Source of the DNA: a virus
Direction: 5' to 3' (one strand)
Length of the DNA: 43,296 nucleotides
IMG/VR virus record: IMGVR_UViG_3300045988_135711
Numbering within the stretch: position 1 is the first letter of the stretch; the number at the start of each line of letters is the position of its first letter. A program made the position numbers and the translations under genes. This document shows, one piece after another, positions 551 through 43,296 of the stretch. The notes beneath the pieces are model-generated. The model was not told the origin of the DNA, did no database searches, and worked only from the letters and a program-made list of their open reading frames with translations.

Positions 551-577
551 TTCATTCCCTTATATTCAAATTGAAAC

Positions 578-868: not shown

Positions 869-1005
869 TACGGTACTATGTGGACATAGAATAGGAACGA
901 TTTTCGAGAGTGATAGACACTGAATAAAAGTATAGTTGATTGAATAAATGGTCTGAATCCTTTCGAGAATGATTGCTATTGCAGGTTCGATTCCTGCTGT
1001 CGTAT
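869..1005 (+). ncRNA. tRNA-like four-way junction RNA element; not a canonical tRNA
   Basis: T arm gcagg-TTCGATT-cctgc (981-997). Acceptor pairing tacggta (869-875) with tgtcgta (998-1004). Hairpin ctatg-UGGA-catag (876-889). Long irregular arm 890-910 paired with 960-980. Confidence 0.4.
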
Positions 1006-1833: not shown

Positions 1834-1868
1834 AGAAAATAAAAAAAGAGTGGTGTTTAAACCACTCT
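1834..1868 (-). terminator. intrinsic terminator of the minus-strand cassette, possibly bidirectional
   Basis: 8-bp stem agagtggt/accactct (1847-1854 and 1861-1868), followed on the - strand by a T-run (A-run 1834-1847 on the + strand). Confidence 0.8.
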
Positions 1869-1880
1869 AATTAATTTAGT

Positions 1881-30253: not shown

Positions 30254-30388
30254 TCAAAATAATTAAACGTTCATAAACAATCCTAGAATCAATTTTAGCT
30301 ACCAGACATATAAATAGCTATCTACAAACTAAAAATTGCGTACAGGGCAAATATGAGCGAATGAGAACAATATAGGAGAGGTATAAAA

Positions 30389-30619
30389 GTGGGAGTAAAG
30401 ATTAAAGAAAATAACGGTTTGAAATTAGCATGGGTAGAAAAGAAATGGTGCGCAGTGTTCAAAGAAAGTCCACTTAACTATTTCGTGATTTATAACGGTG
30501 AAAGACGATTACTGAATAAGAAAATGGGAGAATTAGTCAGCAATCAACCAGAGAACGCACATAACAAACGCTGGATTTGTACACCAAAATGTAAGACCAC
30601 ACATAAGGGAGGGTGTTAA
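30389..30619 (+). CDS. hypothetical protein
   Basis: GTG start with RBS aggagagg. Confidence 0.6.
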   Translation: MGVKIKENNGLKLAWVEKKWCAVFKESPLNYFVIYNGERRLLNKKMGELVSNQPENAHNKRWICTPKCKTTHKGGC

Positions 30620-30687
30620 TGCTAAAAATAATCGCAATAGCATTACTAATTGTGTTCTATTTTTTAAGTGAAATGGGGAGGGATTGA
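30619..30687 (+). CDS. possible 22-aa hydrophobic peptide
   Basis: ATG overlaps the upstream stop, and the ORF ends 1 nt before the next ATG. MLKIIAIALLIVFYFLSEMGRD. Confidence 0.3.
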   Translation: MLKIIAIALLIVFYFLSEMGRD

Positions 30688-31068
30688 ATGTTTTTAGACC
30701 CGATGGAAGTACAAAAACGCTATCGGCATATTGGAATGTTGGTGGCGGAAAGTCACGAAAAAAGAACAGGCAGAAGTTTGTTAGAAGATAAGGAATTAGA
30801 AACTTTTTGTAACTACTTTGCGGAAGATATATGCGACAGAAATGTTGGGTTAAAGAGAACTGTTGCTGGAGTGTGTGAAGATTTCAGAATGAATCTTGAA
30901 ATTTCTTCAAAGGATAAGTTGATTGATGAAATCGACCCTAAGTTTATTAAAGAATTTGCTGACCAGTTAGCGATGAATCTTTTATACGGATATCCAGTAA
31001 GGTTTAACTTTTCAAAATGGATGGAGGGATTGAATGACATTCGTAAAATTAACAAGCACGAACGGTAA
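30688..31068 (+). CDS. hypothetical protein
   Basis: ORF with RBS ggggaggg. Confidence 0.7.
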   Translation: MFLDPMEVQKRYRHIGMLVAESHEKRTGRSLLEDKELETFCNYFAEDICDRNVGLKRTVAGVCEDFRMNLEISSKDKLIDEIDPKFIKEFADQLAMNLLYGYPVRFNFSKWMEGLNDIRKINKHER

Positions 31069-31273
31069 ACCATTGCTTTTGAAATATGAATTGATTGAAT
31101 CGGTGAGAACGTACGTAGTTGGACGACTTTATTCGTTGAACAATGTGGTCGAAGAAGAAGAATACGGAACAGGAATCTTACTAACTAACGGTCATGAATA
31201 CACAGTAGAAGAAACGGTAGAAGAAGTTGAAAAAATATTAGGAGGGAAAGTGAATGAAAAAAATAACGATTGA
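31034..31273 (+). CDS. hypothetical protein
   Basis: ORF with RBS ggaggg. Confidence 0.65.
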   Translation: MTFVKLTSTNGKPLLLKYELIESVRTYVVGRLYSLNNVVEEEEYGTGILLTNGHEYTVEETVEEVEKILGGKVNEKNND

Positions 31274-31484
31274 ATATAATTCAAAAACTTGGGAAATTAA
31301 AGATTTAGATAAAGTGGATTCGTATTCTGAAATCCAGCAGTTAACTTTTGCGTTAAGAGATTTGGAAGAAACTTTAATCAGAAGGAATTTTCCGTTTTTT
31401 ATACCAATGGATAAAGACCTCATGATAAGAATTAACAGAGAAGATTTATTAAACAGTATTAAATCGTTAGGAGAAAACAAATGA
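31254..31484 (+). CDS. hypothetical protein
   Basis: ORF with RBS aggaggg. Confidence 0.65.
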   Translation: MKKITIEYNSKTWEIKDLDKVDSYSEIQQLTFALRDLEETLIRRNFPFFIPMDKDLMIRINREDLLNSIKSLGENK

Positions 31485-31783
31485 CTTTTAAAGAACTAAA
31501 ACCACTAATCGAACAATGGTTTATTGATCGTGACTTACACACAAAGGAAAGTGGTAGACAACTAATCAAACTAGAAGAAGAAATGCTGGAGTTAAAGCAA
31601 GCATACAAACATAAGAATCGTGCAGAAGTTATCGATGCAATCGGGGACATCACTGTGGTATTGATTGGGTTCTGCTTGCAGCAAGGATTAGATTATGAAG
31701 CGTGTATCGAATCAGCGTATCACGAAATTAAAAATAGAAAAGGTAAAGTCGTGAACGGTATTTTTGTGAAGGAGGAAAAGTAG
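31481..31783 (+). CDS. MazG-like nucleotide pyrophosphohydrolase
   Basis: LEEEMLELKQA...EVIDAIGDITVVLIGF (EExxE...D motifs); about 100 aa. Confidence 0.75.
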   Translation: MTFKELKPLIEQWFIDRDLHTKESGRQLIKLEEEMLELKQAYKHKNRAEVIDAIGDITVVLIGFCLQQGLDYEACIESAYHEIKNRKGKVVNGIFVKEEK

Positions 31784-31975
31784 ATGAAAATTATTGAATT
31801 AACAGAATTATTTAACAGAAAAATTTACATGAATATTGATAACATTTCAGTTATTGAAAAATACGAAAATGCAGGAGGTCATTCGTTAATCAGAATGGAT
31901 AGAACAGAATTTCATGTCAAAGAAACACCCGAAGAAATCGTAGCGATGATTCATGAAGCGGAGGGGAATAAATGA
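31784..31975 (+). CDS. hypothetical protein
   Basis: ORF with RBS aaggagg. Confidence 0.65.
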   Translation: MKIIELTELFNRKIYMNIDNISVIEKYENAGGHSLIRMDRTEFHVKETPEEIVAMIHEAEGNK

Positions 31976-32388
31976 TTTTTTTAAGAGAGATTAAAACAGA
32001 ACCACTATTTATGAGTAGTGAAAATATCGAAAATTACGAAATGCACGAATCTGGTTTCGGTACTGTGGTAATTGATAAAAACGGATTCGTACATCACGTA
32101 ATGGAAAATTTAGAAGAAGTAGAAGAAATACTTGCTAAAGGTAGCAACGTGACAGTTGATTATGAAATTGGAATTGGCAACCGAGTATCACCAGAAATTT
32201 TATCCATTGCAAAACCTAACAACGTACCTTCAAAGGTAAGACCAATCGTGATTTTTCCTACTGTGGAAGCTGAAGCAGTAACGGTTAAAGTAATAGAATA
32301 TGATAGTTACGGGTGCGAAAAGCAGGTTTATACAACAGTTGACTCTAACCAATCCCACGTCATCAATCTAAATACGGGAGTGGAGTAG
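31972..32388 (+). CDS. hypothetical protein
   Basis: ORF with RBS ggagggg. Confidence 0.65.
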   Translation: MIFLREIKTEPLFMSSENIENYEMHESGFGTVVIDKNGFVHHVMENLEEVEEILAKGSNVTVDYEIGIGNRVSPEILSIAKPNNVPSKVRPIVIFPTVEAEAVTVKVIEYDSYGCEKQVYTTVDSNQSHVINLNTGVE

Positions 32389-32694
32389 ATGGATAAATTC
32401 GTATATGAATCCACATGCTATTTCAAAATCATTCCTTTTGACGATGCACTGTGGAAGTTAGCGTTTAAAGAATTAAGATATGAGTTACAAATTAAACAGA
32501 TTAATTTTGTACCAACCGCTACTCGCCTTGCGAATTTCGATACCTATTACGATGTGTATGTAGATTGGGCTTTGATTGATGAGCACGGAATAGAAAAAGT
32601 AACGGAAATGGTAAAAGAAAAACTTGATGAAAAAATGCGAAAAGAATTTGAATCTATGTTTAAATACTCAATCTGTGAAATGGAGCGACTATGA
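32389..32694 (+). CDS. hypothetical protein
   Basis: ORF with RBS gggagtggag. Confidence 0.65.
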   Translation: MDKFVYESTCYFKIIPFDDALWKLAFKELRYELQIKQINFVPTATRLANFDTYYDVYVDWALIDEHGIEKVTEMVKEKLDEKMRKEFESMFKYSICEMERL

Positions 32695-33473
32695 ACTACA
32701 CCCATTGTGAAAGATTTAAAGATTACGTGAAATATCAATCTGACGATTCCACGATGTATGAATTTGATAATGGTTACGGTGCTATCGTGGAATATAACAA
32801 ATCAGTAGACAATCTGTGGATAACGATAATCAAAGATATTGATGGTCACGGTTTTAATTACGCTTATCCCGATTTTGCACACGGATTTTGTAGGATTACA
32901 GGAGTGAAAGTGTATCATTTAATTTTATGGTTACAACAAATTAACGAAATAAAAGGAGGACACAAAATGACAAATCTAGACACACTAAAACAACAAACAG
33001 CAGATTTAGAAGCAAAGCTAAAAGAGATGAAAGCAGAAATCGACCGATTGGAAAACGGGTGGGAAATGAAATGCCCGTATGATGTTGATGACGAAGTATA
33101 CGTTTTAGATTTAGAAGGGTTTGCATGCGATGATAGTTGGCGATGTAAGGGGTGGGAATTAAATGCTTTTAACCAAGGTAACATCTTTATAAGCAGAAAA
33201 GCAGCAGAACTTGAAGCAAAACGCAGAAACCTACTCACACGATTCAGAGCGTTCAGAGATGAGTGTAATGGTGAGTGGAAGCCTAATTGGAGAACAAATG
33301 ACGCAAAGTATTATTTTTATATTTCAAGTACAGACAATGAAATAGGAATTAACGATATTTATTTTTATGAAACATTCCCGCTTTTCGGCTATTTCAAAAA
33401 CGAAGAAGACGCCCAACGTGCTATCGAATTATTCGGTGACGAAATCAAAGAATTGTTTGTGGATGGTGAGTAG
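32691..33473 (+). CDS. hypothetical protein; its C-terminal half is a paralog of 37911..38354
   Basis: Shared FRDECNGEWKPNW...FGYFKNEEDAQRAIELFGDEIKELFV. Confidence 0.75.
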   Translation: MNYTHCERFKDYVKYQSDDSTMYEFDNGYGAIVEYNKSVDNLWITIIKDIDGHGFNYAYPDFAHGFCRITGVKVYHLILWLQQINEIKGGHKMTNLDTLKQQTADLEAKLKEMKAEIDRLENGWEMKCPYDVDDEVYVLDLEGFACDDSWRCKGWELNAFNQGNIFISRKAAELEAKRRNLLTRFRAFRDECNGEWKPNWRTNDAKYYFYISSTDNEIGINDIYFYETFPLFGYFKNEEDAQRAIELFGDEIKELFVDGE

Positions 33474-33974
33474 ATGGAAAAAATCAAAAGAGAAGAATTT
33501 AAAGATGTGATTCGTAAAGCTACGGAACGTGCATTAAACAATCTGTGGCATTCAGAATATGTCAATATCGCAGAAGGTTACAAAGAATATCTTGATAATT
33601 TAAAGATTGAAGTAACATTTATTGATTACGAAAAAATCGAAGAAGAAGCGATTAAGATTTTCCAAAGCCACATGTACGACAATTACAACACAGGTCAACT
33701 GCATAATGGTAGTAAAAAAGAACAATTAGACTGCTTACGAAAAGCGGTACTGTATTTTAGGGATGAATGCAACAAAGAAAGAAGACGTGGATTGCATGGT
33801 AAGGTTTACTATTTTTCCAAAGAAGATAACGAGTTAGTTATCCATTCGGAACAATCACCGACACAATTCACACGATACGGGTATTTTAAAAACTATGATG
33901 ATTGTGTGGAATGCTTACGAGTTTTCGGAAAGTATATTTTGGGATTAGAACAAATGTATTGGGAGAAAGATTAA
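33474..33974 (+). CDS. hypothetical protein; C-terminus is distantly related to the same paralog family
   Basis: YFRDECNKE...YGYFKNYDDCVECLRVFG. Confidence 0.7.
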   Translation: MEKIKREEFKDVIRKATERALNNLWHSEYVNIAEGYKEYLDNLKIEVTFIDYEKIEEEAIKIFQSHMYDNYNTGQLHNGSKKEQLDCLRKAVLYFRDECNKERRRGLHGKVYYFSKEDNELVIHSEQSPTQFTRYGYFKNYDDCVECLRVFGKYILGLEQMYWEKD

Positions 33975-34157
33975 ATGAGTTTAACACAAAGTAAAAAAAT
34001 CAAAGACCACACACTATTTCGTAGAGAGGGCGGTTTTTTAAAAATTTCAGAAAAAGGAGTCGAAATTTTAAACGAAAAAGGAGATACGTATGCGTATATC
34101 GTTAGTGAAAACAAAATCGAAGCACTAAAAAAAGAAATGGAGAAAACACATGCCTAA
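33975..34157 (+). CDS. hypothetical protein
   Basis: ORF with RBS gggagaaag. Confidence 0.6.
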   Translation: MSLTQSKKIKDHTLFRREGGFLKISEKGVEILNEKGDTYAYIVSENKIEALKKEMEKTHA

Positions 34158-34437
34158 CACAGACTTACACGACCCACTAACCAAAGCACGATTAGAACAT
34201 GAAGCGGTTAAGCACCCACAGCATTATCAAGGTGTTTGTGGACTTGAAGCAATCGATGTTATGCGAAACTTTCTACCGAAATATCAAAATTCGCATGTAA
34301 GTTACTTAATCGGTAACGTGATTAAATACGTGTTACGTGCGCCCAGCAAAGGTAAGGAAATGGAAGACCTCATGAAAGCACAAACGTATCTAGGACTTGC
34401 GATTAAAGAGTTGAAGTGGGAGGAAGAAGGAAAGTGA
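34150..34437 (+). CDS. DUF3310-like phage protein
   Basis: HPQHYQ...EAIDVM...GNVIKYVLRAPSKGKEMEDLMKAQTYL. Confidence 0.7.
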   Translation: MPNTDLHDPLTKARLEHEAVKHPQHYQGVCGLEAIDVMRNFLPKYQNSHVSYLIGNVIKYVLRAPSKGKEMEDLMKAQTYLGLAIKELKWEEEGK

Positions 34438-34598
34438 TACTGAAAATTTTAACGTTGGTTGTCTTTTCCTTTATATTTTTGTTTATCTTTGACTGGATTA
34501 TATCTGATAGCTTTAGAAATTTCATCTTTACGTTGTTAGGAGTAATTGTGATTATAGTTCTTTGCATTTTAGAACTATTCGGAGTGATAGCTTTTTAA
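34434..34598 (+). CDS. small two-TM membrane protein
   Basis: GTG at 34434 with ggaggaagaagg upstream, overlapping the previous stop. Confidence 0.55.
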   Translation: MILKILTLVVFSFIFLFIFDWIISDSFRNFIFTLLGVIVIIVLCILELFGVIAF

Positions 34599-34610
34599 AG
34601 GAGGGAGAAA

Positions 34611-34943
34611 ATGGAACTATTATCAGCAACATATTGCCCGTATTGCGAAAGCAGGCTAGACATAGAAAGCATGCTCACATTGGAAAAATTAAAAGAAATG
34701 GAATTCTATCTTACCTGTCCAAAGTGTAATAAAGCGTTCTCGAATTTTGCGAAAACAGAAATAAGAATACGCGTAAGCAGTATTGAAGATAGAATTGAGA
34801 AAGAAAAAGATTCTTTATTATTTTGGGAGAAATCTAAGATAAAAGGCGATGAATTTAAAAGTGCTGTAATTAAATCACGAAAACAAACTATTCAAGAATT
34901 AGAATTGATTAAGAGAAGAAACGATAAGGTGGTTAGGAAATGA
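34611..34943 (+). CDS. zinc-ribbon protein
   Basis: CPYC...CPKC; RBS aaggaggg. Confidence 0.7.
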   Translation: MELLSATYCPYCESRLDIESMLTLEKLKEMEFYLTCPKCNKAFSNFAKTEIRIRVSSIEDRIEKEKDSLLFWEKSKIKGDEFKSAVIKSRKQTIQELELIKRRNDKVVRK

Positions 34944-35302
34944 AAACAATCAATGAAATAACAGATGATGAATTGTTGTTTAATGAACAAACCGATTCCC
35001 AAATATATGCATGCGATTTAAAACATGAATGGAATTCGTTAAATGAGGATGAGAGAAGCGGATGGCGAACACTTAAAGAAAGAACAATCAAATTATATGC
35101 TAAATCTGTATTAGATTGGATATATGATGGGATGGATTCAGAAGGCTACGAAGATATGTTTGACAATTTATGGGACGACACGGACGAAGAATTTAAACAA
35201 CGAATGCAAGAGCTACTTGATGAAATTTCTGGCTTTCCAAGTGCTAAAGTTTATGACATTGATGAGTCTATCAATCCATTCGTGGATTTGGAGGATGAGT
35301 GA
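34940..35302 (+). CDS. hypothetical acidic protein, paralog of 35543..35911
   Basis: Shared EEFKQRMQELLDEI...INPFVDLEDE tail. Confidence 0.7.
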   Translation: MKTINEITDDELLFNEQTDSQIYACDLKHEWNSLNEDERSGWRTLKERTIKLYAKSVLDWIYDGMDSEGYEDMFDNLWDDTDEEFKQRMQELLDEISGFPSAKVYDIDESINPFVDLEDE

Positions 35303-35304
35303 GG

Positions 35305-35517
35305 ATGGAAGAAAAAGCAGAACTACTAATATATATATTTGGATTAGCGTTAAGTTTAACTGTGTTATTAGTAATTATTAAATTAGCTGGAGTTCTAATC
35401 AATTGGTTTGTAGCCACACTGCCATTACTGATATACGCAGCAATTATGTCAATTCTAATATTAATTGGTTCAATCGCAGGGATTGTGATGTCAATCCAGG
35501 AGAACATGAGAGGATAA
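35305..35517 (+). CDS. small two-TM membrane protein
   Basis: The ATG at 35305 lies 9 nt after ggagga; the sequence is hydrophobic. Confidence 0.6.
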   Translation: MEEKAELLIYIFGLALSLTVLLVIIKLAGVLINWFVATLPLLIYAAIMSILILIGSIAGIVMSIQENMRG

Positions 35518-35542
35518 CAACAAAACATAAGGGGAACAAAAA

Positions 35543-35911
35543 ATGGAAACAGTGACAATCAACGATACGGATTACAACGGATATTACTACGAATCCGAAT
35601 CGGATTCCTACTTACCTATGAGCGATTTATGGCAGGAATGGAATTACTATCATCCGACAGACAGAGCTACCTTCTACACAACAAAAATGAAGATTGCAAA
35701 AATCAGTGTGGATGAAGCACTGCGAGCGATTTATGACAAAATTGAAGGAAATCGTTGTGAGCATATGGCGTGGTATCTATTCGAAGATACACCAAAAGAA
35801 TTCAAACAATTAATGCAGCAATTACTGGATGAGATTCCGAAATTCGGAAGAGTAGAATATTATGTGCCAGATAAACACATAAATCCCGATGTTGATTTGG
35901 AGGATGATTAA
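35543..35911 (+). CDS. hypothetical acidic protein, paralog of 34940..35302
   Basis: KEFKQLMQQLLDEI...INPDVDLEDD. Confidence 0.7.
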   Translation: METVTINDTDYNGYYYESESDSYLPMSDLWQEWNYYHPTDRATFYTTKMKIAKISVDEALRAIYDKIEGNRCEHMAWYLFEDTPKEFKQLMQQLLDEIPKFGRVEYYVPDKHINPDVDLEDD

Positions 35912-36499
35912 ATGAAATCACCAACTACAAATCATATAGAATATCTAATTTTTAAACATACTAACAAATTAGGAACTTATGGATGTAGAGAAGTAAAGAT
36001 AGGTGGTGTAAAAACCAAACGATTTATTACGGATAATCAAGAATTTGTGGATTACATGACAATTACATCAGACGGAGAAATAACTTGTTATGAAATCAAA
36101 TCAAGTTTGGAAGATATAAAATCAAATGCTAGGTTATCATTTTATGGACATAAAAACTATTTTGTGATGCCGACAGAATTGTATAACGATATATGTAATG
36201 AATCGTGGTTTTTAAGAAAATTAGAAAATCATACCGTAGGTGTTATATCAGTAAACAAATTTGATGAATTAAAAGTAGTTAAGAAATGTAAGAATAAGAA
36301 ATTGTCGATTGGAACTCAAACTATATTACTAGAATCCTTTGCTAAATCAACTGCTAGAGATGTAGCAAAGTTATATCAGTTAGAAAAATCAAGCGAAAGA
36401 CGTTTAAGTTCAAAACAAATCGATGATTTACTAAAAGAAATTGTGACAGAAGATTTTGTTGTTAATGCAATTAATGAATTTAAAGCATTGGAGGACTAG
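35912..36499 (+). CDS. possible PD-(D/E)XK nuclease-fold protein (MmcB-like)
   Basis: VDYM...CYEIKSS resembles the D...E.K motif. The function call is tentative. Confidence 0.7.
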   Translation: MKSPTTNHIEYLIFKHTNKLGTYGCREVKIGGVKTKRFITDNQEFVDYMTITSDGEITCYEIKSSLEDIKSNARLSFYGHKNYFVMPTELYNDICNESWFLRKLENHTVGVISVNKFDELKVVKKCKNKKLSIGTQTILLESFAKSTARDVAKLYQLEKSSERRLSSKQIDDLLKEIVTEDFVVNAINEFKALED

Positions 36500-36501
36500 T
36501 A

Positions 36502-36855
36502 ATGCAAAACGAAATAATAAACAAAATAGCCGAATGGTTACAAATCAGCGTGGAAAAAGCAGTAGAACTTTATCCACAGTTAAGAATGGAAACGGTGTGG
36601 TATTCGGTGATGAATAATGTTTCGACAATTCTATTGTGCTCAGGAGTTGTAATAATAATCTTTATGTTTGTGGATTATATGAACTATACAATGTGTTCAT
36701 ATAAGGATGAAGTAGAAATTAAAAAATCTGCAAGTGAAAGATTAAAACAGTTTGCTAAATTTTTAATGGTTTTAGTTGCTTTACTATTAGTTTTAAGCAT
36801 AGTTTCACCTTTCTTATATCCAAACATCGTGTTCTTTAAACAGTTTGTGAAGTAG
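36502..36855 (+). CDS. membrane protein
   Basis: Two long hydrophobic segments; RBS ggagga. Confidence 0.65.
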   Translation: MQNEIINKIAEWLQISVEKAVELYPQLRMETVWYSVMNNVSTILLCSGVVIIIFMFVDYMNYTMCSYKDEVEIKKSASERLKQFAKFLMVLVALLLVLSIVSPFLYPNIVFFKQFVK

Positions 36856-36863
36856 GTGGGTAA

Positions 36864-37061
36864 ATGACACTATTTGTAATTTTTAGAAATCAAGAAAAAT
36901 ATACTTTCTATGGTTTAAAGGAATACAGTATTGAATATGGAAAATATCTGAAATTTACTTATACAGGGGAAAAGGACAATTATTGGTCTCAACGTAAAGA
37001 AAAAACACACGAAGGATGCTTTATGTTAGATGCAATCGCTGGTTATTATGTTCATAAATAG
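36864..37061 (+). CDS. hypothetical protein
   Basis: ORF with RBS aggtggg. Confidence 0.6.
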   Translation: MTLFVIFRNQEKYTFYGLKEYSIEYGKYLKFTYTGEKDNYWSQRKEKTHEGCFMLDAIAGYYVHK

Positions 37062-37074
37062 GGAGGTTGAGTAA

Positions 37075-37416
37075 ATGAGTATACTAGATTTTATAATCAA
37101 ACACTCTCTACGTTTTGATTTAATATTATTGAGCATTTTTGTAATTGCCTTGCTTTGGTGCGCTTTAGATTTATACAAATTAAAGCGTGAAGGTACACCT
37201 CTTGAGCGAGCGTTGAAGCAATTAGAACAAGAAAGGCAAGAAAATATCAAATGGCAGATAAATCGGAATTTAGAAGCTAGAAAAAGAAAAACAGCAATAT
37301 CCGATTTAATCGCAATGTTTGGTAACAGGGATATTAAAATTGATTACGAAAGTGATAGATTTTACGTAATCATAAAAATAAATAAAGATGAATTAATTGA
37401 AAGGGAGGTTAAGTAA
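37075..37416 (+). CDS. N-terminally membrane-anchored protein
   Basis: ORF with RBS gggagg. Confidence 0.65.
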   Translation: MSILDFIIKHSLRFDLILLSIFVIALLWCALDLYKLKREGTPLERALKQLEQERQENIKWQINRNLEARKRKTAISDLIAMFGNRDIKIDYESDRFYVIIKINKDELIEREVK

Positions 37417-37907
37417 TGCCTAATTGGTGTGAAGGGTATTTAAAGATTAGGGGTAAGAGAGAAGACTTAATCAATTTCATTGAAAATGAGATTCTATTAA
37501 TGAATTATATCGATTCTGACAATATCGAAGAAGAAAATATCAAATTGGAATTTTATGATTTTGAATATTTCTTTGGGTACGACAAAAGTGAAAGACAATA
37601 TTTATATCTCAAAAATAGCCACCGTTTTTTCATTGAAGATGAATCTATTCGTTTCCAATACGATGAAAGGGAAAGTGCACCACACTACTTACTGCTGCAT
37701 ATTAGACGGTCATGGAGCATTAAGAATGAAAAAATGCTTGTTGAAGATAGCAAGAAATATCATTTAGATTTCAATGTATATGCAACTGAAAGAAATCTGG
37801 AATTTGAAGAATACATCACTATCATCGATGGTGAAATCACAAAAAATGAAACAAAAGAATATGACGATTTCCGTTTCGAAGCAATCAATCCCGAATTAGG
37901 AGGTTAA
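37416..37907 (+). CDS. hypothetical protein with an MPNWCEG N-terminus (DUF1281-like start)
   Basis: ORF with RBS gggagg; family assignment is tentative. Confidence 0.65.
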   Translation: MPNWCEGYLKIRGKREDLINFIENEILLMNYIDSDNIEEENIKLEFYDFEYFFGYDKSERQYLYLKNSHRFFIEDESIRFQYDERESAPHYLLLHIRRSWSIKNEKMLVEDSKKYHLDFNVYATERNLEFEEYITIIDGEITKNETKEYDDFRFEAINPELGG

Positions 37908-37910
37908 GTA

Positions 37911-38354
37911 ATGGACACACTAGAAAGAGAAAAAGAAATTGACTTATTAGAACGTGAATGTTGCCCGTTTAAAGAAGGTGACGAATATTGGGGTTTGAAT
38001 AGTGACGGGAGCGTTTCAAAATTAACCTGGGATAATCACTATATCGACCAAAGCGTGTTAATGCTAGGTAATGCATTTAAAACATCAAAAGAAGCAATCC
38101 TAGAAGCAGACCGTAGAGTGTTGCTGCACAACTTCAAAATGTTCAGAGATAAATGTAATGGGGATTGGAAACCTAATTTCACTTATCACGACAATAAATA
38201 CTTTATAGAAAAAAGGAGTGGGAAAATAGACGTTAATTATATTTGTACGGTTAACGCATTCATACTTTTCGGTTACTTTAAAAACGAATCCGATGCACAA
38301 AAAGCCATCGAACTCTTTGGCGATGAAATTAAGCGGTTATATGTGGAGGTGTAA
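37911..38354 (+). CDS. hypothetical protein, paralog of the C-terminal half of 32691..33473
   Basis: FRDKCNGDWKPNF...FGYFKNESDAQKAIELFGDEIKRLYV. Confidence 0.75.
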   Translation: MDTLEREKEIDLLERECCPFKEGDEYWGLNSDGSVSKLTWDNHYIDQSVLMLGNAFKTSKEAILEADRRVLLHNFKMFRDKCNGDWKPNFTYHDNKYFIEKRSGKIDVNYICTVNAFILFGYFKNESDAQKAIELFGDEIKRLYVEV

Positions 38355-38356
38355 TA

Positions 38357-38563
38357 ATGAGATTTATTTTATGGACAATCGCAATCTGTGTTTCGGGATT
38401 GCTGGCAATCTTAAAACTATTCGGATTGCAGTATAGTTGGGTGATTGCTTTCTCACCAGTGTTAGGATTACTAGCGTTCGAGTTATTCGTTTCGCTAGTA
38501 GCAATTTTATACATTATCGTAAAAGCAGCGTTTGTGGTATTAAAACGTAGAAAGAAGGGTTAG
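38357..38563 (+). CDS. small two-TM membrane protein
   Basis: ORF with RBS ggaggtg. Confidence 0.65.
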   Translation: MRFILWTIAICVSGLLAILKLFGLQYSWVIAFSPVLGLLAFELFVSLVAILYIIVKAAFVVLKRRKKG

Positions 38564-39583
38564 ATGCAGTTTTTAGATCTATTCGCAGGTATCGGTGGCT
38601 TCCGTCTAGGGATGGAAGCTGCAGGACACCAGTGCATTGGATTTTGTGAAATTGATAAATTCGCAAGAGCAAGTTATAAAGCAATTCACGACACAAAAAG
38701 GGAAATAGAATTACATGACATTACAACCGTATCAGACGAGTTTATTCAATCCATCGGACATGTCGATGTTATCTGTGGAGGATTTCCGTGCCAAGCTTTC
38801 TCGATTGCAGGGAATAGAAGAGGATTCGAAGATACGAGAGGAACTCTATTCTTTGAAATCGCAAGGTTCGCATCTATTCTCAAACCTAGAATTTTGTTTC
38901 TTGAAAATGTCAAAGGGTTACTCAACCACGACAAAGGAAGAACATTTGAAACCATCTTGCAAGCGCTGGATGAACTGGGGTACAACGTGGAATGGCAAGT
39001 GCTTAACAGCAAAGATTTCGGAGTGCCACAAAACAGAGAACGAGTGTTCATTATCGGACATCTTAGAGGAGAAGGTGGACGAAAAGTATTTCCTATCGAT
39101 GGACAAATTAAAAACGTTAATTGTGTACGACAAATAGGCAATCTGATACAAACATCGAGTTACGGTGGTAATCCACATAGAGGTAGAGTTTATTCGTCGA
39201 AAGGAATCTCACCTAGTCTGAATTGTATGGGTGGTGGAGGTAGAGAACCTAAAATCCGTATCAAAGAAGCAACCAAAAAAGGTTATGCAGAAGCAACAAT
39301 CGGAGATAGTGTAAATCTTTCACATCCTAACTCAAAAACGAGAAGGGGTAGAGTAGGTAAAGGGATTGCGAATACGCTACTCACTGGAGAAGAACAAGGT
39401 GTGGTTTTGAATGATTTCAGAATCCGTAAACTAACCCCGAAAGAATGTTGGAGATTACAAGGATTTCCAGATTGGGCTTTTGAAAGAGCAGCAAAGGTAA
39501 ATAGTAATAGTCAACTATACAAACAAGCAGGTAATAGTGTGACGGTAAACGTGATTGAAGCTATCGCAAGGAGGTTAGTATGA
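38564..39583 (+). CDS. dcm: DNA (cytosine-5)-methyltransferase, orphan
   Basis: FAGIGG (motif I), GFPCQAFS (IV), ENVKGL (VI), QNRERVFIIG (VIII), GNSVTVNV (X). Confidence 0.95.
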   Translation: MQFLDLFAGIGGFRLGMEAAGHQCIGFCEIDKFARASYKAIHDTKREIELHDITTVSDEFIQSIGHVDVICGGFPCQAFSIAGNRRGFEDTRGTLFFEIARFASILKPRILFLENVKGLLNHDKGRTFETILQALDELGYNVEWQVLNSKDFGVPQNRERVFIIGHLRGEGGRKVFPIDGQIKNVNCVRQIGNLIQTSSYGGNPHRGRVYSSKGISPSLNCMGGGGREPKIRIKEATKKGYAEATIGDSVNLSHPNSKTRRGRVGKGIANTLLTGEEQGVVLNDFRIRKLTPKECWRLQGFPDWAFERAAKVNSNSQLYKQAGNSVTVNVIEAIARRLV

Positions 39584-39777
39584 AAATTAGAACTCTTATC
39601 GTATATGAAGGTTCACCAAAGCATTTTTTAAAGCATTGTACGTGTGACTTAGAAACGCATAAATTAACTTTAGAAGGAAACGAAATTGAAAATGTATTTA
39701 TTATCGGTAAGGAATTGGATGCAAAAGGTTGGGTGCGTGATTATATTGAAAATTATCGTAAAATCCACAATCAATAA
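39580..39777 (+). CDS. hypothetical protein
   Basis: ORF with RBS aaggagg. Confidence 0.65.
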   Translation: MKIRTLIVYEGSPKHFLKHCTCDLETHKLTLEGNEIENVFIIGKELDAKGWVRDYIENYRKIHNQ

Positions 39778-39910
39778 TTATATATACGAATACGATTCTA
39801 CTGAAATCGTAATCTATCCTAGGGAATGTGTAATCATCAAAGAAGAAGGTAAACCACTAATCATTTTAAAAGATGAATATATTGAAAGAATGGAAATAAA
39901 GGAGGGTTAA
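39686..39910 (+). CDS. hypothetical protein; start uncertain (TTG 39686 or ATG 39719), or joined to the previous ORF by a frame change
   Basis: 39778-39910 is open only in this frame and abuts the RBS of the next gene. Confidence 0.45.
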   Translation: MKMYLLSVRNWMQKVGCVIILKIIVKSTINNYIYEYDSTEIVIYPRECVIIKEEGKPLIILKDEYIERMEIKEG

Positions 39911-39911
39911 A

Positions 39912-41111
39912 TTGCAAGAAGAACAGAATCGAATTTTAGACTTAAAAGAAGAAGGGTATTCATGGACACAGATTGCGAATCGGTTAGGATATCCTCATTG
40001 GGATAAGGTACGAAGTAAAGTTCGCAGAACTCCACGTTACAAAGAAATGATGGCGAAAAAGAAAGAACAAACCGTTTTAAAAAGTACAACAGAAGAAGAA
40101 TTTAAAAAGAAAGATTATTTCGATGACGGTTCAATCGGTTCGCAGATTCGAGTAAGACAGAAAATTAAGAAAGTGTTTACGAATGAAGAATTGATTAAGT
40201 TACACGGATTCGACCCTAAAGAAGTCACGTTAAAATCAGCTACATCGAATGAATGGACGACACCTGTTGCTGGTGAAACGTATTACAACTATCAATCTAA
40301 AATCGTAGTAGTACCTAAGAAGAAAGAATTGCTTGCTATCGATGAAATCAGAAAATGTTTTGACGACATCGAACCACGAAGAATTGAGTTATCGTGTGAT
40401 GATTTACCAAAAGATTACTTACTGATTCCGCTATCGGATATGCATTTCGGATTAAATAGTGATGAAGATTATAAAGACTTACAAAAAGAAATTGCAGATA
40501 AGATTTTAAACACGTATGAAGAAATCTTATTCACAATCCACGGAGATTACTTCCATGTAGACAATTTCTTGAATACAACTGAAAAAGGTACACGTATTGA
40601 CGATGTGGACTTTCGGGAGGGTATTCAGGCAGGGTATCGGTTTATTGTACCGTTACTTGAACTAGCGCTTGAAAACAGTCCAAATGTTAAACTCGTGTAC
40701 TTAAAGGGTAATCATGCACCATCGGTTGATTTTATGTTTGTGGATGCATTAGAGAAACGATACTCACAGATTGAGTTCGATACCACCCTTGATGAATTTA
40801 AACATGCATGGTTAGGAACACATTCCATCTTTATGCACCACGGAGATAAAGTAAAAAATCCAACTAAATTACATGGAATCATGACAGCACACTTTGCTAA
40901 AGAGTGGGGAGAAAGTCAGTCACGGTATTTAATCACTGGACACTTTCATCATGAGAAATCTTTATCTTTCGCTGGTGTAACGTGGTATCAGTTGCAAAGT
41001 CCTAGCAAACATTCATCGTATGATAAAACAAACGGATTCGATACAAGCGAAACTGGACAAATGTTATTCGAATTTTCAGAAACAAAAAGGAGTGCGGTTT
41101 ATTATGTATAA
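39912..41111 (+). CDS. calcineurin-like metallophosphoesterase with an N-terminal HTH-like segment
   Basis: SDMHFG, HGDYFHVDN, KGNHA, GHFHHE motifs. TTG start with RBS aaggaggg. Confidence 0.75.
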   Translation: MQEEQNRILDLKEEGYSWTQIANRLGYPHWDKVRSKVRRTPRYKEMMAKKKEQTVLKSTTEEEFKKKDYFDDGSIGSQIRVRQKIKKVFTNEELIKLHGFDPKEVTLKSATSNEWTTPVAGETYYNYQSKIVVVPKKKELLAIDEIRKCFDDIEPRRIELSCDDLPKDYLLIPLSDMHFGLNSDEDYKDLQKEIADKILNTYEEILFTIHGDYFHVDNFLNTTEKGTRIDDVDFREGIQAGYRFIVPLLELALENSPNVKLVYLKGNHAPSVDFMFVDALEKRYSQIEFDTTLDEFKHAWLGTHSIFMHHGDKVKNPTKLHGIMTAHFAKEWGESQSRYLITGHFHHEKSLSFAGVTWYQLQSPSKHSSYDKTNGFDTSETGQMLFEFSETKRSAVYYV

Positions 41112-41415
41112 AGTTGTTTCACATAAAGACGATGCATACGTACTCAAAATCTTTGCATTCAATAATGAAGACTTGAATAATGGTAAGTTGATAGGGCTGG
41201 AACGTTTCGGTAATGATGATTGCATTGAAGATGATTTAGTTTATATGAATTTCAAATGTATCGATAAATTTAAAAGAGTTCATTACGATATTTACTTTCA
41301 TAGAAACGTACTTAGAAATGAGCCTAAAAATAAAATTATACTGACTGGGCAACTTATTGCGCTTGTAGACACAATTAAAAGAAATTCAAAAAGGAGTGCT
41401 ATTGATTATGTATAA
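41104..41415 (+). CDS. hypothetical protein
   Basis: The ATG at 41104 is preceded by aaaaaggagtgc. Confidence 0.65.
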   Translation: MYKVVSHKDDAYVLKIFAFNNEDLNNGKLIGLERFGNDDCIEDDLVYMNFKCIDKFKRVHYDIYFHRNVLRNEPKNKIILTGQLIALVDTIKRNSKRSAIDYV

Positions 41416-41599
41416 AGAACTAACAGTATTTTTAAAGAATGGAAACACATTAAAGTTTGAGAATGTCACAGATTTCAGTTTTAACTTATATTGTGACAAT
41501 GTGAATTTTTACTATGTGAGTATGTCAACAGGTAAGAAGAAATATGCAACTTTATTTTTAGATAAAATTGTGATGTATTCTTACGAAAAGGAGCAATAA
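41408..41599 (+). CDS. hypothetical protein
   Basis: The ATG at 41408 is preceded by the same aaaaaggagtgc box. Confidence 0.65.
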   Translation: MYKELTVFLKNGNTLKFENVTDFSFNLYCDNVNFYYVSMSTGKKKYATLFLDKIVMYSYEKEQ

Positions 41600-41602
41600 A
41601 CC

Positions 41603-41833
41603 ATGCTCACTTTATACTCAAAACCAAATTGCATGCAGTGCAAGTTTACAAAAGAATATTTACTAGATCATAACATCGAATATAAAGAAATTAATGTCAT
41701 GGAAGATGTAGAAAAATTAGAATACATCAAAAACGAACTAGGGTATCAAACGTTACCCGTGATTGAAACTGATACAGGGAATTCGTGGTTCGGATTCCGA
41801 CCCGATTTACTGGAGGGGTTGAATGGAGAATAA
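41603..41833 (+). CDS. nrdH: NrdH-like glutaredoxin
   Basis: LYSKPNCMQCKFTKEYL has the CxxC thioredoxin-fold pattern; 76 aa. Confidence 0.85.
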   Translation: MLTLYSKPNCMQCKFTKEYLLDHNIEYKEINVMEDVEKLEYIKNELGYQTLPVIETDTGNSWFGFRPDLLEGLNGE

Positions 41834-42227
41834 TTATCATTTAAAGCAGATTCGGTTAATTGATAAAGAGATTAATCAAATGCTAAATGAATTAGAACGC
41901 ATTCAATGTTCATTGATGCGCAGTCCACAATTAAAGCAAGTAAGTGTGCAGGAATCAAAAGTTGGATTGAAGGACGATGTGTATATCAAGATGATTGAAT
42001 ACAATGATAAGATTAATCAGAAAGTGGATGAATTAATCGATACGAAAAAGAAAGTATTCGATACAATCGAACAAATCAAAGACCATGAACAACGATTGAT
42101 TTTAAAAATGCGCTATGTGGATTGTGAAAAATGGGAAGACATCGAAGAGGAATTGCATGTATCGAAAAATACGATGCATAGAATCCACAGAAAAGCATTA
42201 AAAGAATTTAATTCATTATGGTACTAA
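41823..42227 (+). CDS. ArpU/RinA-like late-gene transcriptional activator (sigma region-4-like)
   Basis: C-terminal ILKMRYVDCEKWEDIEEELHVSKNTMHRIHRKALKEF; last early gene before the packaging region. Confidence 0.8.
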   Translation: MENNYHLKQIRLIDKEINQMLNELERIQCSLMRSPQLKQVSVQESKVGLKDDVYIKMIEYNDKINQKVDELIDTKKKVFDTIEQIKDHEQRLILKMRYVDCEKWEDIEEELHVSKNTMHRIHRKALKEFNSLWY

Positions 42228-43040
42228 TTGCGCTAGAATGTGACTATATATGTGTGGTAATGTTATTGTGCAATAAATGGCTATGGGGCAACTCATAGCC
42301 TATACATACTAATCGGCTTAGCGATATAATCCTTGGTGACAAGGGAAAGTTACTCTTTTATATGTCAAGAGTAGCGGTGGTAAAATACCAATCTAAGCAA
42401 CGTGGGTATTAATGGAATAAGAAATTGTTCCAGCTTCGAAAACTATCATTTTTAGGCAGAGTCAATCGATGAGCCAATGCAGTCATGCGTTAATGAATGG
42501 TTGAAGAAGTGATATGACACAAGGTAATAGCGTGAGGGTAGCTCTAAGCGCAACTACCATGAATAGATTTCTTGAGGTGGACAACCTTGTAAATCTATTT
42601 GAGTGAAGAACGATGCTAACGTTCATGCATAACAAGCAGGCGCTGGGGATTTTGTTATTCAAAAGATAACGAACTCTAAGGCAATGCGTGTCTGTGACAA
42701 TATAAATATGGGATAATGACGATTTAAAACTTATTAGCAAAATAAGCAGATTGGATTAAAGCAAAAGTCATTGCCCGTTATAAACGATAGTGCCTTTTTG
42801 TAGGATTGACCTACACACGAAACCTTCGCAAGAGGAATCGTGAAGTCGAAAAGTAAAGCAGTTTAGACCGTAGCTAGGTTTTTATTAATTGAAAGACGGC
42901 TTAGTAGTTTATAACGATACGAGTAGTTAGCGATACTAACTAGGCATGAGTGTTACGTGTAGGGATATGCGTGGAAACGAAACTAAAACATAAGGTTTCA
43001 AAAGACACTCAAACGTTACCTGTATTCTCAAGGTGTTAAA

Positions 43041-43093
43041 TGCTGTACCCGTGGAAGGGCGTTTATGTTAAGGTTCGATTCCTTATGCAGCAG
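43041..43093 (+). ncRNA. truncated tRNA-like module: acceptor stem, short UGGA-loop hairpin and canonical T arm; no anticodon arm
   Basis: tgctgta (43041-47) pairs with tgcagca (43086-92). ccc-GUGGAA-ggg (43048-59). taagg-TTCGATT-cctta (43069-85). Confidence 0.5.
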
Positions 43094-43130
43094 TTTTGAT
43101 TGCGGTATATATCTAAGGAGTATACCTTTA

Positions 43131-43162
43131 CCTCTCATGTTTATTGCATGAGGGGTATTTTT
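43131..43162 (+). terminator. intrinsic terminator closing the ncRNA unit
   Basis: 9-bp stem cctctcatg/catgagggg with a 7-nt loop, then taTTTTTa. Confidence 0.8.
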
Positions 43163-43187
43163 ATACATAAAAACGAAAGGAGCAGTT

Positions 43188-43296
43188 ATGGAATATAAAA
43201 CAACGATTGTACGTAGGGCGGTACAGTTCACTGGTGATTTAACACAAATGCCAAATTGGTTTTTAGAACGGTGCAGTATCGGTAAATCGGGCGGGG
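43188..43296 (+). CDS. hypothetical protein, N-terminal part of the junction-spanning ORF (continues at position 56 of the window)
   Basis: ATG at 43188 with RBS aaaggag 6 nt upstream, in frame with 7..213. Confidence 0.6.
   Translation, partial: MEYKTTIVRRAVQFTGDLTQMPNWFLERCSIGKSGG
43242..43296. repeat. 55-bp terminal direct repeat, a copy of 1-55
   Basis: Exact identity with the start of the window. Confidence 0.95.

What the first reader, a model, noticed from the sequence alone, without database searches (positions are those of the whole stretch)
42228..43187. About 0.9 kb ORF-free, hairpin-dense transcription unit between the late activator and the packaging genes: candidate large structured ncRNA
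About 950 bp separate the stop of the ArpU/RinA-like gene (42227) from the RBS of the next gene (43176). There is no credible ORF here; the only ORF-track hits are two antisense ORFs of 85 and 67 aa without an RBS. Elsewhere in this genome genes abut or overlap. One 60-nt line I counted here is about 40% G+C; I did not count a reference region, so any G+C excess is only an impression. The + strand is packed with perfect short helices, several capped by GNRA tetraloops: 42279-42300 (7 bp); 42331-42344 (ccttg-GUGA-caagg); 42351-42373 (7 bp); 42562-42599 (9-bp outer helix plus inner aggt/acct); 42608-42624; 42730-42746, nested inside a long-range helix 42710-42720 with 42767-42776; 42800-42814; 42818-42840 (cga/tcg enclosing cuuc-GCAA-gagg); 42970-42979 (cgu-GGAA-acg); and 43104-43126. 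The block ends with a tRNA-like module and a canonical intrinsic terminator (43131-43162). It therefore looks like a discrete RNA gene rather than a leader. Large ornate RNAs (GOLLD, ROOL) are known from Firmicutes prophages and often sit next to tRNAs. I cannot verify from memory whether this sequence matches either consensus. If it matches neither, it would be a new class. Its position at the head of the late operon also allows an antitermination or processing role.
Basis: partly seen in the sequence, partly recalled or inferred. Interest (0 to 1): 0.85.

Follow-up and report, generated by a model that had tools for sequence, protein, structure and literature searches.

The report
GOLLD RNA gene in Carnobacterium phage

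Summary
Window 42228-43187 has no credible ORF and folds far better than shuffled sequence on the + strand.

It is not a new RNA class. Positions 42635-43034 match Rfam GOLLD (RF02032) end to end at 230 bits (gathering score 150). The 320 nt upstream (42315-42634) form a GOLLD 5' domain of the Streptococcus agalactiae type. 40 of its 58 predicted pairs show compensatory changes across Carnobacterium- and Streptococcus-phage copies. The full RNA is about 720 nt.

The window is a complete, circularly permuted phage genome, probably from Carnobacterium.

- **Upstream:** GOLLD lies directly after a late-activator gene (DUF1492/LtrB family). Related phages have ArpU- or RinA-family activators at that spot.
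- **Downstream:** a 52-nt tRNA-like minihelix follows, in the place where Streptococcus phages carry real tRNAs. It is not a tRNA by ARAGORN or Rfam. Then come a hairpin, a conserved intrinsic terminator and the packaging genes.
- **Presence/absence:** one close relative lacks GOLLD but keeps the tRNA-like stub and terminator, so GOLLD behaves as a dispensable cassette.

The function of GOLLD remains unknown. Novelty: new member of a known kind. Interest is modest.

The parts
41823..42227 (+). Upstream gene: late transcriptional activator of the DUF1492/LtrB family with a sigma-70 region-4-like C-terminus (context, not part of the RNA)
   Evidence: Pfam DUF1492 at 61.8 bits (cut-off 21.5). Sigma70_r4_2 scores 25.4, just under its cut-off. 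The family assignment follows Quiles-Puchalt 2013 (PMC3753634).
42236..42272 (+). Short direct repeats just after the activator gene (ATGTG at 42238 and 42250, ATGTT at 42260): candidate activator-binding sites of the late promoter (inferred)
   Evidence: Read directly from the sequence. The segment is kept in relatives with the same activator, including the GOLLD-less L004. In L016, which has a RinA-family activator, it is replaced by TGATAT x3. The analogy is to Ltr-binding repeats 'immediately distal' to ltr genes.
42279..42300 (.). 9-bp hairpin with a GCAA loop, upstream of the conserved RNA and variable between relatives
   Evidence: dG -15 kcal/mol, z -5.0. L001 and L003 carry a different, longer hairpin here. 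The scan also calls it terminator-like on the - strand.
42301..42314 (+). TATACAT-containing segment conserved in all five Carnobacterium-type copies, 8 nt before GGCUUAGC: candidate -10 element or 5' leader (unresolved)
   Evidence: Alignment A3. The scan's TATACA-N18-TATAAT promoter places its -10 inside the conserved RNA sequence GGCUUAGCGAUAUAAUCC, so I do not accept it as called.
42315..42634 (+). GOLLD 5' domain. It starts with invariant GGCUUAGC, whose GCUUAG (42316-42321) pairs with invariant CUAAGC (42394-42399). It includes the hairpins at 42331-44 (GNRA loop), 42351-73 and 42562-99, and probably the one at 42608-24.
   Evidence: GGCTTAGC lies 310-324 nt before the Rfam core in all 13 Lactobacillales-phage copies examined. 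The RNAalifold consensus of 9 sequences has 58 pairs, 40 of them with compensatory changes. 92.3% of cells are paired against 35-40% in slid controls, and the covariation score is 0.67 against about 0.1.
42635..43034 (+). GOLLD conserved 3' domain (the part modelled by Rfam). It includes the variable linker at 42697-42757, the 10-bp pseudoknot 42776-42785 with 42907-42916, and a hairpin loop with palindromic UAGCUA at 42871-42876.
   Evidence: RF02032 at 230.4 bits (gathering score 150), E 3e-64, model 1-416/416. About 70% identical to Streptococcus phage GOLLDs, several of which are annotated 'GOLLD'. Model positions 232-244 (one hairpin) are absent, as in the S. agalactiae copy.
43041..43092 (+). 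tRNA-like minihelix: 7-bp acceptor stem (43041-47 with 43086-92), small hairpin CCC-GUGGAA-GGG (43048-59), T arm UAAGG-UUCGAUU-CCUUA (43069-85). It has no anticodon arm and is not a tRNA.
   Evidence: Read directly from the sequence. The 7-bp acceptor stem is recovered by the fold of this segment alone; that fold pairs the interior differently and its z-score is weak, -1.5. ARAGORN finds no tRNA and Rfam tRNA gives no hit at E<=10. Real tRNAs start 6-10 nt after GOLLD in Streptococcus phages. The stems are invariant and the linker varies in relatives. It is retained at 99% identity in the GOLLD-less L004.
43104..43126 (+). Conserved hairpin between the tRNA-like element and the terminator. L001 and L004 carry 86-nt and 37-nt insertions just after it.
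43129..43165 (+). Intrinsic terminator: 12-bp stem, 5-nt loop, U-run
   Evidence: Terminator scan: 5 sites found against 0.8 expected in the region. The stem is kept through changes on both arms in L001, L003 and L065.
43176..43296 (+). RBS and start (ATG at 43188) of the next gene, an 88-aa protein of unknown function. It continues across the circular junction to window position 213. HNH endonuclease (197-550), terS (4457-4951) and terL (4948-6645) follow.
   Evidence: 55-nt terminal direct repeat; translation; Pfam HNH, Terminase_4 and TerL domains

Best explanation
Window 42315-43034 (+) is a GOLLD RNA gene of the compact Streptococcus agalactiae type. It has a 320-nt 5' domain and a 400-nt 3' domain joined through a variable linker. 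It is carried by a temperate siphophage whose host is probably Carnobacterium.

Shown here:
- Family membership by covariance model.
- A covariation-supported 5' domain.
- No coding potential.
- + strand orientation, the same as all neighbouring genes.
- Position directly downstream of the phage's late-activator gene and upstream of the HNH/terminase genes.
- A tRNA-like minihelix, a hairpin and an intrinsic terminator at the 3' side.

Inferred:
1. The RNA is made during lytic growth. The likeliest source is the activator-dependent late promoter that the ltr-terS intergenic region normally holds. Transcription would start near GGCUUAGC (about 42315).
2. Its 3' end is set by RNase P cleavage at the tRNA-like element (about 43040) or by the terminator at 43157. 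Some read-through would feed the late genes.
3. Like its solved homologues, it self-assembles into a hollow homo-oligomeric RNA cage. The S. agalactiae full-length RNA forms a 12-mer and env-38 forms a 14-mer.
4. The cage gives a non-essential benefit to phage production, perhaps by holding or sequestering tRNA or translation components.

Nobody knows the cargo or the benefit.
For: - **Identity:** (GOLLD at 230 bits, full model). One search shows about 70% identity to Streptococcus phage GOLLDs, some annotated as GOLLD. Searches show 5' domain homology and covariation. One search shows the relatives score 229-276 bits.
- **Architecture:** one model hairpin is missing, as in the S. agalactiae copy, whose full-length 700-nt RNA is a dodecamer (PMC12990946). 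Cage formation and unknown function come from PMC12286853.
- **Non-coding:**
- **Structure excess:**
- **Late-gene context:** searches show DUF1492, ArpU and RinA activators immediately upstream in different phages. Ltr-binding repeats and the late promoter lie just distal to ltr genes (PMC3753634). GOLLD expression rises with phage production or lysis (citing Weinberg 2009).
- **3' processing idea:** real tRNAs abut GOLLD 6-10 nt downstream in four Streptococcus phages. A tRNA or an acceptor/T-arm minihelix ends 4-6 nt before GGCUUAGC in three of them.
- **Terminator:**
- **Dispensability:** L004 has the same activator and late genes but no GOLLD.
- **Host:** L065, a Carnobacterium MAG, carries the same RNA.
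Against: - No transcript data exist. The promoter and both RNA ends are inferred.
- The only consensus sigma-70 promoter hit (42301-42330) has its -10 inside conserved RNA sequence, so the true start is unresolved.
- A strong terminator only 30 nt before the first late gene is hard to square with a late promoter upstream of GOLLD, unless read-through or antitermination occurs.
- The tRNA-like element persists where GOLLD is absent, so it is not merely a GOLLD processing handle.
- S. pneumoniae-type copies lack a convincing acceptor stem in their 3' tRNA-like element.
- Oligomeric state and function are extrapolated from homologues with about 70% identity in the core and a far more diverged 5' domain.
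- The host rests on one metagenome-assembled genome.
- The 5' structure was derived from the same 9-sequence alignment on which covariation was counted.
Confidence: 0.93

Rival explanations
1. It is a previously undescribed class of large structured RNA.
For: The 5' 320 nt and the tail find nothing by blastn in phage records and are not covered by the Rfam model.
Against: There is a full-length GOLLD match well above the gathering score. The 5' part aligns motif by motif and helix by helix with the 5' domains of Streptococcus GOLLDs.
Confidence: 0.01
2. The region is mainly a cis-acting leader of the late operon. It would act as an antitermination, attenuation or processing element that the downstream packaging genes need, not as a free-standing RNA.
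For: It lies between the late activator with its candidate binding repeats and the first late gene. It ends in a strong terminator only 30 nt before that gene's RBS.
Against: L004 has the same activator gene, tail, terminator and downstream genes without GOLLD. In S. suis phage Javan584, GOLLD sits between terL and portal. Homologues fold into closed cages on their own. A secondary effect on late-gene dosage through the terminator is not excluded.
Confidence: 0.05
3. The stretch hides small protein-coding genes on either strand.
For: ORFs of 85 and 67 aa exist on the - strand.
Against: Both are disrupted by indels or stops in L001, L003, L016 and L065, while the RNA helices are kept. The + strand maximum is 32 aa.
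Confidence: 0.01
4. The tail (43041-43092) is a decayed tRNA gene with no present function, a relic of a tRNA that once followed GOLLD.
For: Real tRNAs occupy this spot in Streptococcus phages. The element lacks an anticodon arm and fails both tRNA detectors.
Against: The acceptor and T arm are perfectly paired and invariant in six loci, while the internal linker varies. The element is kept at 99% identity where GOLLD was lost. This pattern fits selection on the minihelix. However, the relatives are close, so drift has had little time to act.
Confidence: 0.3

Closest known systems
GOLLD RNA of Streptococcus agalactiae prophages (e.g. phages LYGO9, JX01, phiGBSVK-D). The full-length 700-nt RNA has been solved as a dodecameric cage (PDB 9L0R, as listed in PMC12990946).
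   Same: The 3' domain is collinear at about 71% identity. The same model hairpin is absent. The 5' domain has the same length class (310-324 nt) and the same motifs: GGCUUAGC, GAUAAUC, a GNRA hairpin, GGAAAG and CAAUCUAAGCAA. The synteny is also the same: late activator, then GOLLD, then a tRNA-type element, then HNH/terS.
   Different: The 5' domain sequence is too diverged for blastn. The linker is longer. A truncated tRNA-like minihelix replaces a real tRNA-Ser downstream. A plain hairpin replaces an acceptor/T-arm minihelix upstream. The activator is DUF1492 instead of ArpU. The host genus is different.
GOLLD env-38 (marine metagenome), an 833-nt RNA forming a D7 14-mer nanocage (Kretsch et al. 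2025, PMC12286853)
   Same: Same Rfam family. Same two-domain plan with an internal variable linker. Both sit next to a tRNA.
   Different: env-38 has extra helices that the S. agalactiae type lacks (P9, P11a-c, P21b, per PMC12990946). It is about 110 nt longer. Its oligomer number probably differs.
ROOL RNA (RF03087)
   Same: A large ornate phage or prophage RNA found near tRNAs that also forms cages.
   Different: It has an unrelated sequence and fold. There is no match in the region even at E<=10.
MALAT1/mascRNA-type 3'-end formation (eukaryotic lncRNA cut by RNase P at a tRNA-like structure)
   Same: A long structured ncRNA is followed within a few nucleotides by a tRNA-like acceptor/T-arm element that could recruit RNase P. 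This is an analogy from general knowledge, not something tested here.
   Different: The system here is bacterial and no cleavage has been shown. The element also exists without the lncRNA in L004.

Membership tests
GOLLD RNA (Rfam RF02032) | Covariance-model score at or above the curated gathering score, over the full model | tested here: met
   230.4 bits against 150, model 1-416/416, E 3e-64
GOLLD RNA (Rfam RF02032) | Conserved 3' domain helices and the long-range pseudoknot | tested here: met
   Only 4 non-canonical pairs are flagged in the cmscan alignment. All 10 pseudoknot pairs form (42776-85 with 42907-16), read and the sequence.
GOLLD RNA (Rfam RF02032) | Less conserved but structured 5' domain preceding the 3' domain, giving a total length of about 700-830 nt | tested here: met
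   42315-42634. 58 consensus pairs, 40 with compensatory changes, 92% paired against 35-40% in slid controls. Total length is 720 nt.
GOLLD RNA (Rfam RF02032) | Phage or prophage context with adjacent tRNA genes (typical, not obligatory) | tested here: met
   Complete temperate-phage genome with terminase and HNH genes. The adjacent element is only tRNA-like. True tRNAs are present in Streptococcus relatives.
GOLLD RNA (Rfam RF02032) | RNA-only homo-oligomeric nanocage | not testable with these tools
   Known for env-38 (14-mer) and S. agalactiae (12-mer). In the window, the loop 42870-42876 carries a palindromic UAGCUA that could form a symmetric kissing loop (inference).
GOLLD RNA (Rfam RF02032) | Expression linked to lytic growth | not testable with these tools
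   Only positional evidence: it lies directly after a late-activator gene.
ROOL RNA | Covariance-model match | tested here: not met
   No hit at the gathering score in the window or at E<=10 in 42150-43296
tRNA (for 43041-43092) | Cloverleaf with anticodon arm, detected by ARAGORN or Rfam RF00005 | tested here: not met
   No ARAGORN call at default settings. No RF00005 hit at E<=10, nor at E<=0.1 in L004 and L065. The ARAGORN 'tRNA-Ile(aat)' of 99 nt in L004 has a mismatched acceptor and D arm.
tRNA-like minihelix (minimal RNase P/RNase Z/CCA-enzyme substrate) | 7-bp acceptor stem stacked on a 5-bp T stem with a canonical UUCGAUU loop | tested here: met
   Read from the sequence. Acceptor stem recovered in the fold. 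The exact 11-mer GGTTCGATTCC is present. Enzymatic recognition was not tested.
Ltr superfamily late activators (for the upstream gene) | Membership of one of the RinA/ArpU, Sigma70_r4, DUF1492 or LtrC families, encoded just upstream of the packaging genes | tested here: met
   DUF1492 at 61.8 bits (cut-off 21.5). ArpU TIGR01637 scores only 21 bits (cut-off 43.1), so it is not ArpU itself. Families are as defined in PMC3753634.

The most novel reading that the evidence does not exclude
In Lactobacillales phages, GOLLD may be the first product of the activator-dependent late transcription unit. It sits immediately after late-activator genes of three unrelated families (DUF1492, ArpU, RinA). It would be released from that transcript by tRNA-processing enzymes acting on flanking tRNAs or minimal acceptor/T-arm minihelices, much as MALAT1 is released at mascRNA.

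On this reading, the 52-nt anticodon-less stub here is a dedicated RNase P 'punctuation' or insulator element at the head of the late operon, not a dead tRNA. The stub survives in a natural GOLLD deletion. This would tie GOLLD dosage and timing to packaging and lysis. It would also supply a natural with/without pair of phages for asking what the cage does.
Probability: 0.3. Interest if true: 0.5.

Novelty: new member of a known kind. Interest (0 to 1): 0.3.

Why it matters
GOLLD is one of the largest bacterial and phage ncRNAs. Since 2025 it has been known to build RNA-only nanocages, yet its function is still unknown. Another copy adds little by itself. Three things in this locus are useful to people working on that question:

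1. A set of near-identical phages exists in which GOLLD is present (window, L001, L003, L016, L065) or cleanly absent (L004). The late-activator module is also swapped among them (DUF1492 against RinA).
2. GOLLD is consistently placed right after late-activator genes. This predicts late, activator-dependent expression and can be tested with simple reporter fusions.
3. tRNAs or anticodon-less tRNA-like minihelices consistently abut the RNA's ends. This predicts maturation by RNase P or RNase Z.

The locus also extends the compact S. agalactiae-type architecture to a Carnobacterium phage.

Tried and rejected
1. **Core-motif scans.** I scanned for AAAGCAAAAGTCNNNNNCCGTT to collect more GOLLDs.
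   - In viral contigs, only the window's relatives and three Streptococcus-like copies were real. The other 16 loci scanned with Rfam have no GOLLD.
   - In genome contigs, about 69 of the 75 hits are expected by chance. Only L065 (a Carnobacterium MAG) matched the window.
2. **Sigma-70 promoter TATACA-N18-TATAAT (42301-42330).** I rejected it as called, because its -10 lies in GGCUUAGCGAUAUAAUCC. That sequence is invariant or conserved RNA and pairs with CUAAGC.
3. **ARAGORN 'tRNA-Ile(aat)' spanning the L004 junction.** I rejected it because of a mismatched acceptor, a 3-bp D arm, a giant 'variable arm' and no Rfam tRNA hit. GOLLD is therefore not inserted in a tRNA gene.
4. **Low-threshold ARAGORN calls in the window tail.** I discarded them for the same reasons.
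5. **Second exact GGTTCGATTCC at 984-994.** It has no acceptor stem and a fold z-score near 0. The T-arm-like elements 3' of the S. pneumoniae-type GOLLDs also lack a good acceptor, so the 'minihelix at both ends' pattern is not universal.
6. **Near-identity search of 30000-43296 against phage records.** It found only a shared methylase gene, so no close sequenced phage exists.
7. **Weak Rfam hits in the tail** (preQ1-II, PyrR, L10 leader, SpF11; E 1-3.5, far below their gathering scores). These ride on the terminator and RBS.
8. **Papers not held.** Weinberg 2009, Morgado 2020 and Wang 2025 could not be read. Statements about them are second-hand.
Full report
**1. The observation**

The upstream gene ends at 42227. 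The next RBS (AAAGGAG, 43176-43182) and ATG (43188) follow about 950 nt later. No + strand ORF exceeds 32 aa. The two antisense ORFs (85 and 67 aa) are destroyed by frameshifts or stops in all four close relatives.

The + strand folds at -273.8 kcal/mol, z = -6.1 against dinucleotide shuffles. The - strand gives z = -4.05. G+C is 38.0% against 34.6% for the window, at the 89th percentile of 960-nt windows. That is a mild excess.

The long-range 42710-20/42767-76 helix pairs only as two blocks (3 bp and 6 bp) around an internal loop. The terminator (43129-43157 plus a T-run) is found by the scan, where 5 sites were found against 0.8 expected.

The window is a complete, circularly permuted phage genome. 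Its last 55 nt repeat its first 55 nt. The gene starting at 43188 continues to position 213. An HNH endonuclease, terS and terL follow it.

**2. What it is**

cmscan against all of Rfam gives one hit in the window: GOLLD (RF02032) at 42635-43034 on the + strand. The score is 230.4 bits (gathering score 150), E 3e-64, covering model positions 1-416 of 416. A permissive scan of 42150-43296 adds only chance-level hits on the terminator/RBS tail. It finds no ROOL, tRNA, tmRNA, RNase P or intron.

blastn against phage records finds only Streptococcus phages, at about 70% identity. The matches cover exactly the Rfam-modelled half, and several of those records annotate it as 'GOLLD'.

The Rfam model covers only the conserved 3' domain, so I asked whether the 400 nt upstream belong to the RNA.

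- In 13 Lactobacillales-phage copies, an invariant GGCTTAGC lies 310-324 nt before the core. These are five Carnobacterium-type copies (window, L001, L003, L016, L065) and eight Streptococcus-type copies (L101-L106, L010, L021).
- The window's copy of that motif is at 42315-42322.
- Shared motifs follow it: GAUAAUC, a GNRA-capped hairpin, GGAAAG and CAAUCUAAGCAA.
- An RNAalifold consensus of nine such 5' domains has 58 pairs, 40 with compensatory changes.
- 92.3% of cells are paired, against 35-40% when partners are slid by 1-3 columns. The covariation score is 0.67 against about 0.1, and 0 of 500 shuffles reach the observed values.
- Caveat: the structure came from the same alignment.

GCUUAG (42316-21) pairs with the invariant CUAAGC (42394-99) and encloses three hairpins. 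The RNA is therefore 42315-43034, about 720 nt.

It lacks the hairpin at model positions 232-244 and is collinear there with the S. agalactiae copy. Published cryo-EM shows that the S. agalactiae full-length 700-nt GOLLD is a dodecameric cage and that it lacks several helices of the 833-nt env-38 14-mer (PMC12990946; PMC12286853). I therefore call the window's RNA a compact S. agalactiae-type GOLLD.

**3. Relatives and host**

Four IMG/VR contigs and one Carnobacterium MAG (L065) carry the same RNA at 94-98% identity. No sequenced phage is close. The host is probably Carnobacterium (Lactobacillales), which fits the family's name.

Variation among these copies concentrates in the linker (42697-42757), in line with the disordered variable linker described for GOLLD cages. 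The substitutions in the terminator stem and in one core helix (42963-42982) preserve base pairing.

**4. Flanks**

*(a) Upstream gene.* It is DUF1492 with a sigma-70 region-4-like end. That is the LtrB family of the late-activator superfamily defined by Quiles-Puchalt et al. 2013. It scores below the cut-off for ArpU.

- In the three Streptococcus loci tested (L101, L102, L105), the gene just before GOLLD is a strong ArpU-family member.
- In L016, whose GOLLD is 97-98% identical to the window's, it is a RinA-family gene.
- Homology between L016 and the window starts at about 42258, just after different sets of short direct repeats. These are ATGTG/ATGTG/ATGTT in the window and TGATAT x3 in L016.
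- The 2013 paper describes the same layout: activator-specific repeats immediately distal to the ltr gene, then a shared late-promoter region.
- I infer that GOLLD lies at the head of the activator-dependent late unit. A conserved TATACAT, 8 nt before GGCUUAGC, is a candidate -10.
- This is not shown. I rejected the scan's own promoter call (42301-42330) because its -10 lies within conserved RNA.

*(b) Hairpin 42279-42300.* It is stable (z = -5.0), but L001 and L003 have a different hairpin there. It is a flank, not part of the conserved RNA.

*(c) tRNA-like element.* Six nucleotides after the core comes a 52-nt element (43041-43092). It has a perfect 7-bp acceptor stem, a small hairpin and a canonical T arm (UUCGAUU loop), but no anticodon arm.

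- ARAGORN and the Rfam tRNA model reject it.
- In Streptococcus phages, real tRNAs begin 6-10 nt after the core (tRNA-Ser, a further unassigned tRNA model hit, and tRNA-Trp as second in a tandem pair).
- In S. agalactiae and S. uberis phages, an acceptor/T-arm minihelix or a tRNA ends 4-6 nt before GGCUUAGC.
- This tight abutment suggests co-transcription and end formation by RNase P or RNase Z. That is an inference. Earlier authors only noted proximity to tRNAs and possible co-transcription.

*(d) Tail.* A conserved hairpin and the terminator follow. Only 30 nt separate the terminator from the next start codon, so late-gene transcription must read through it or start within it.

**5. A natural deletion**

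L004 has the same activator gene (97% aa identity) and the first 45 nt after it. It then goes almost directly to the tRNA-like element (99% identity), the terminator and the same downstream genes, with no GOLLD.

Its junction keeps a short hairpin resembling GOLLD's last helix, which hints at deletion rather than insertion. The evidence is weak because the alignment is short.

GOLLD therefore behaves as a dispensable cassette. The tRNA-like stub has a reason to exist without it.

**6. Mechanism**

Firm: this is a GOLLD RNA gene.

Likely, but inferred:
- It is expressed late in the lytic cycle.
- It is matured at the tRNA-like element and/or the terminator.
- It self-assembles into a cage of about 12 copies.
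- It is accessory rather than essential.

Its cargo and benefit are unknown, as for every GOLLD. Published ideas include holding tRNAs and binding ribosomes.

**7. Verdict**

The RNA is a new member of a known family, found by a routine Rfam scan, so novelty and interest are modest. The side observations are worth a note to people studying GOLLD function: the late-activator synteny across three families, the minihelix punctuation, and the natural presence/absence pair.

Noticed in passing
window 1-55 and 43242-43296: The window's ends are a 55-nt exact direct repeat. The gene starting at 43188 continues at position 56. The window is therefore a circularly permuted, complete phage genome of about 43.24 kb (an assembly overlap), not a chromosomal prophage fragment.
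   Followed up: yes
window 551-1880: A second ORF-poor, AT-rich stretch lies between the HNH gene and a block of - strand genes. Its only long ORF is a 114-aa antisense one (692-1036) that I did not assess. There are no Rfam hits above chance. It may hold the cos/pac site and the regulatory signals of the - strand genes.
   Followed up: partly
window 592-663: Three direct repeats of about 17 nt (TTCGAwwwnTGGTTTTT) are spaced 27-28 nt apart, just downstream of the HNH endonuclease gene. A fourth copy lies at 812-828. They are candidate terminase or packaging recognition repeats.
   Followed up: no
window 981-997: A second exact tRNA T-arm-like motif (GCAGG-UUCGAUU-CCUGC) lies on the + strand. 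It has no acceptor stem, and the fold is no better than shuffles (z -0.7). It is about 75% conserved in L001 and L004. It could be a tRNA remnant.
   Followed up: partly
L016 11007-11399 (- strand) versus window 41823-42257: Two phages have GOLLD and late regions that are 97-98% identical. They carry non-homologous late activators (RinA-family against DUF1492), each with its own short direct repeats. This looks like a clean modular swap of activator plus binding site.
   Followed up: partly
L102 2160-2192; L106 equivalent: In S. agalactiae phages, a bare 35-nt acceptor/T-arm minihelix (UGGGGCG-U-GCAGG-UUCGAAU-CCUGC-CGUCUCA; dG -18.4, z -3.9) ends 5 nt before the GOLLD 5' motif. ARAGORN does not call it as a tRNA (tested on L102 only), and Rfam does not call it in either locus.
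   Followed up: partly
L001 about 5343-5428 and L004 about 4572-4608: Insertions of 86 nt and 37 nt sit at the same point between the conserved hairpin and the terminator (window 43127/43128). Their content was not analysed.
   Followed up: no
window 41603-41833: A glutaredoxin-like (NrdH-type) gene lies immediately upstream of the late-activator gene and overlaps it by 11 nt.
   Followed up: no
window 38564-39583: This is the only segment with megablast similarity to many Streptococcus, Lactococcus and Enterococcus phages (about 80% identity). It is annotated there as a DNA (cytosine) methyltransferase.
   Followed up: no
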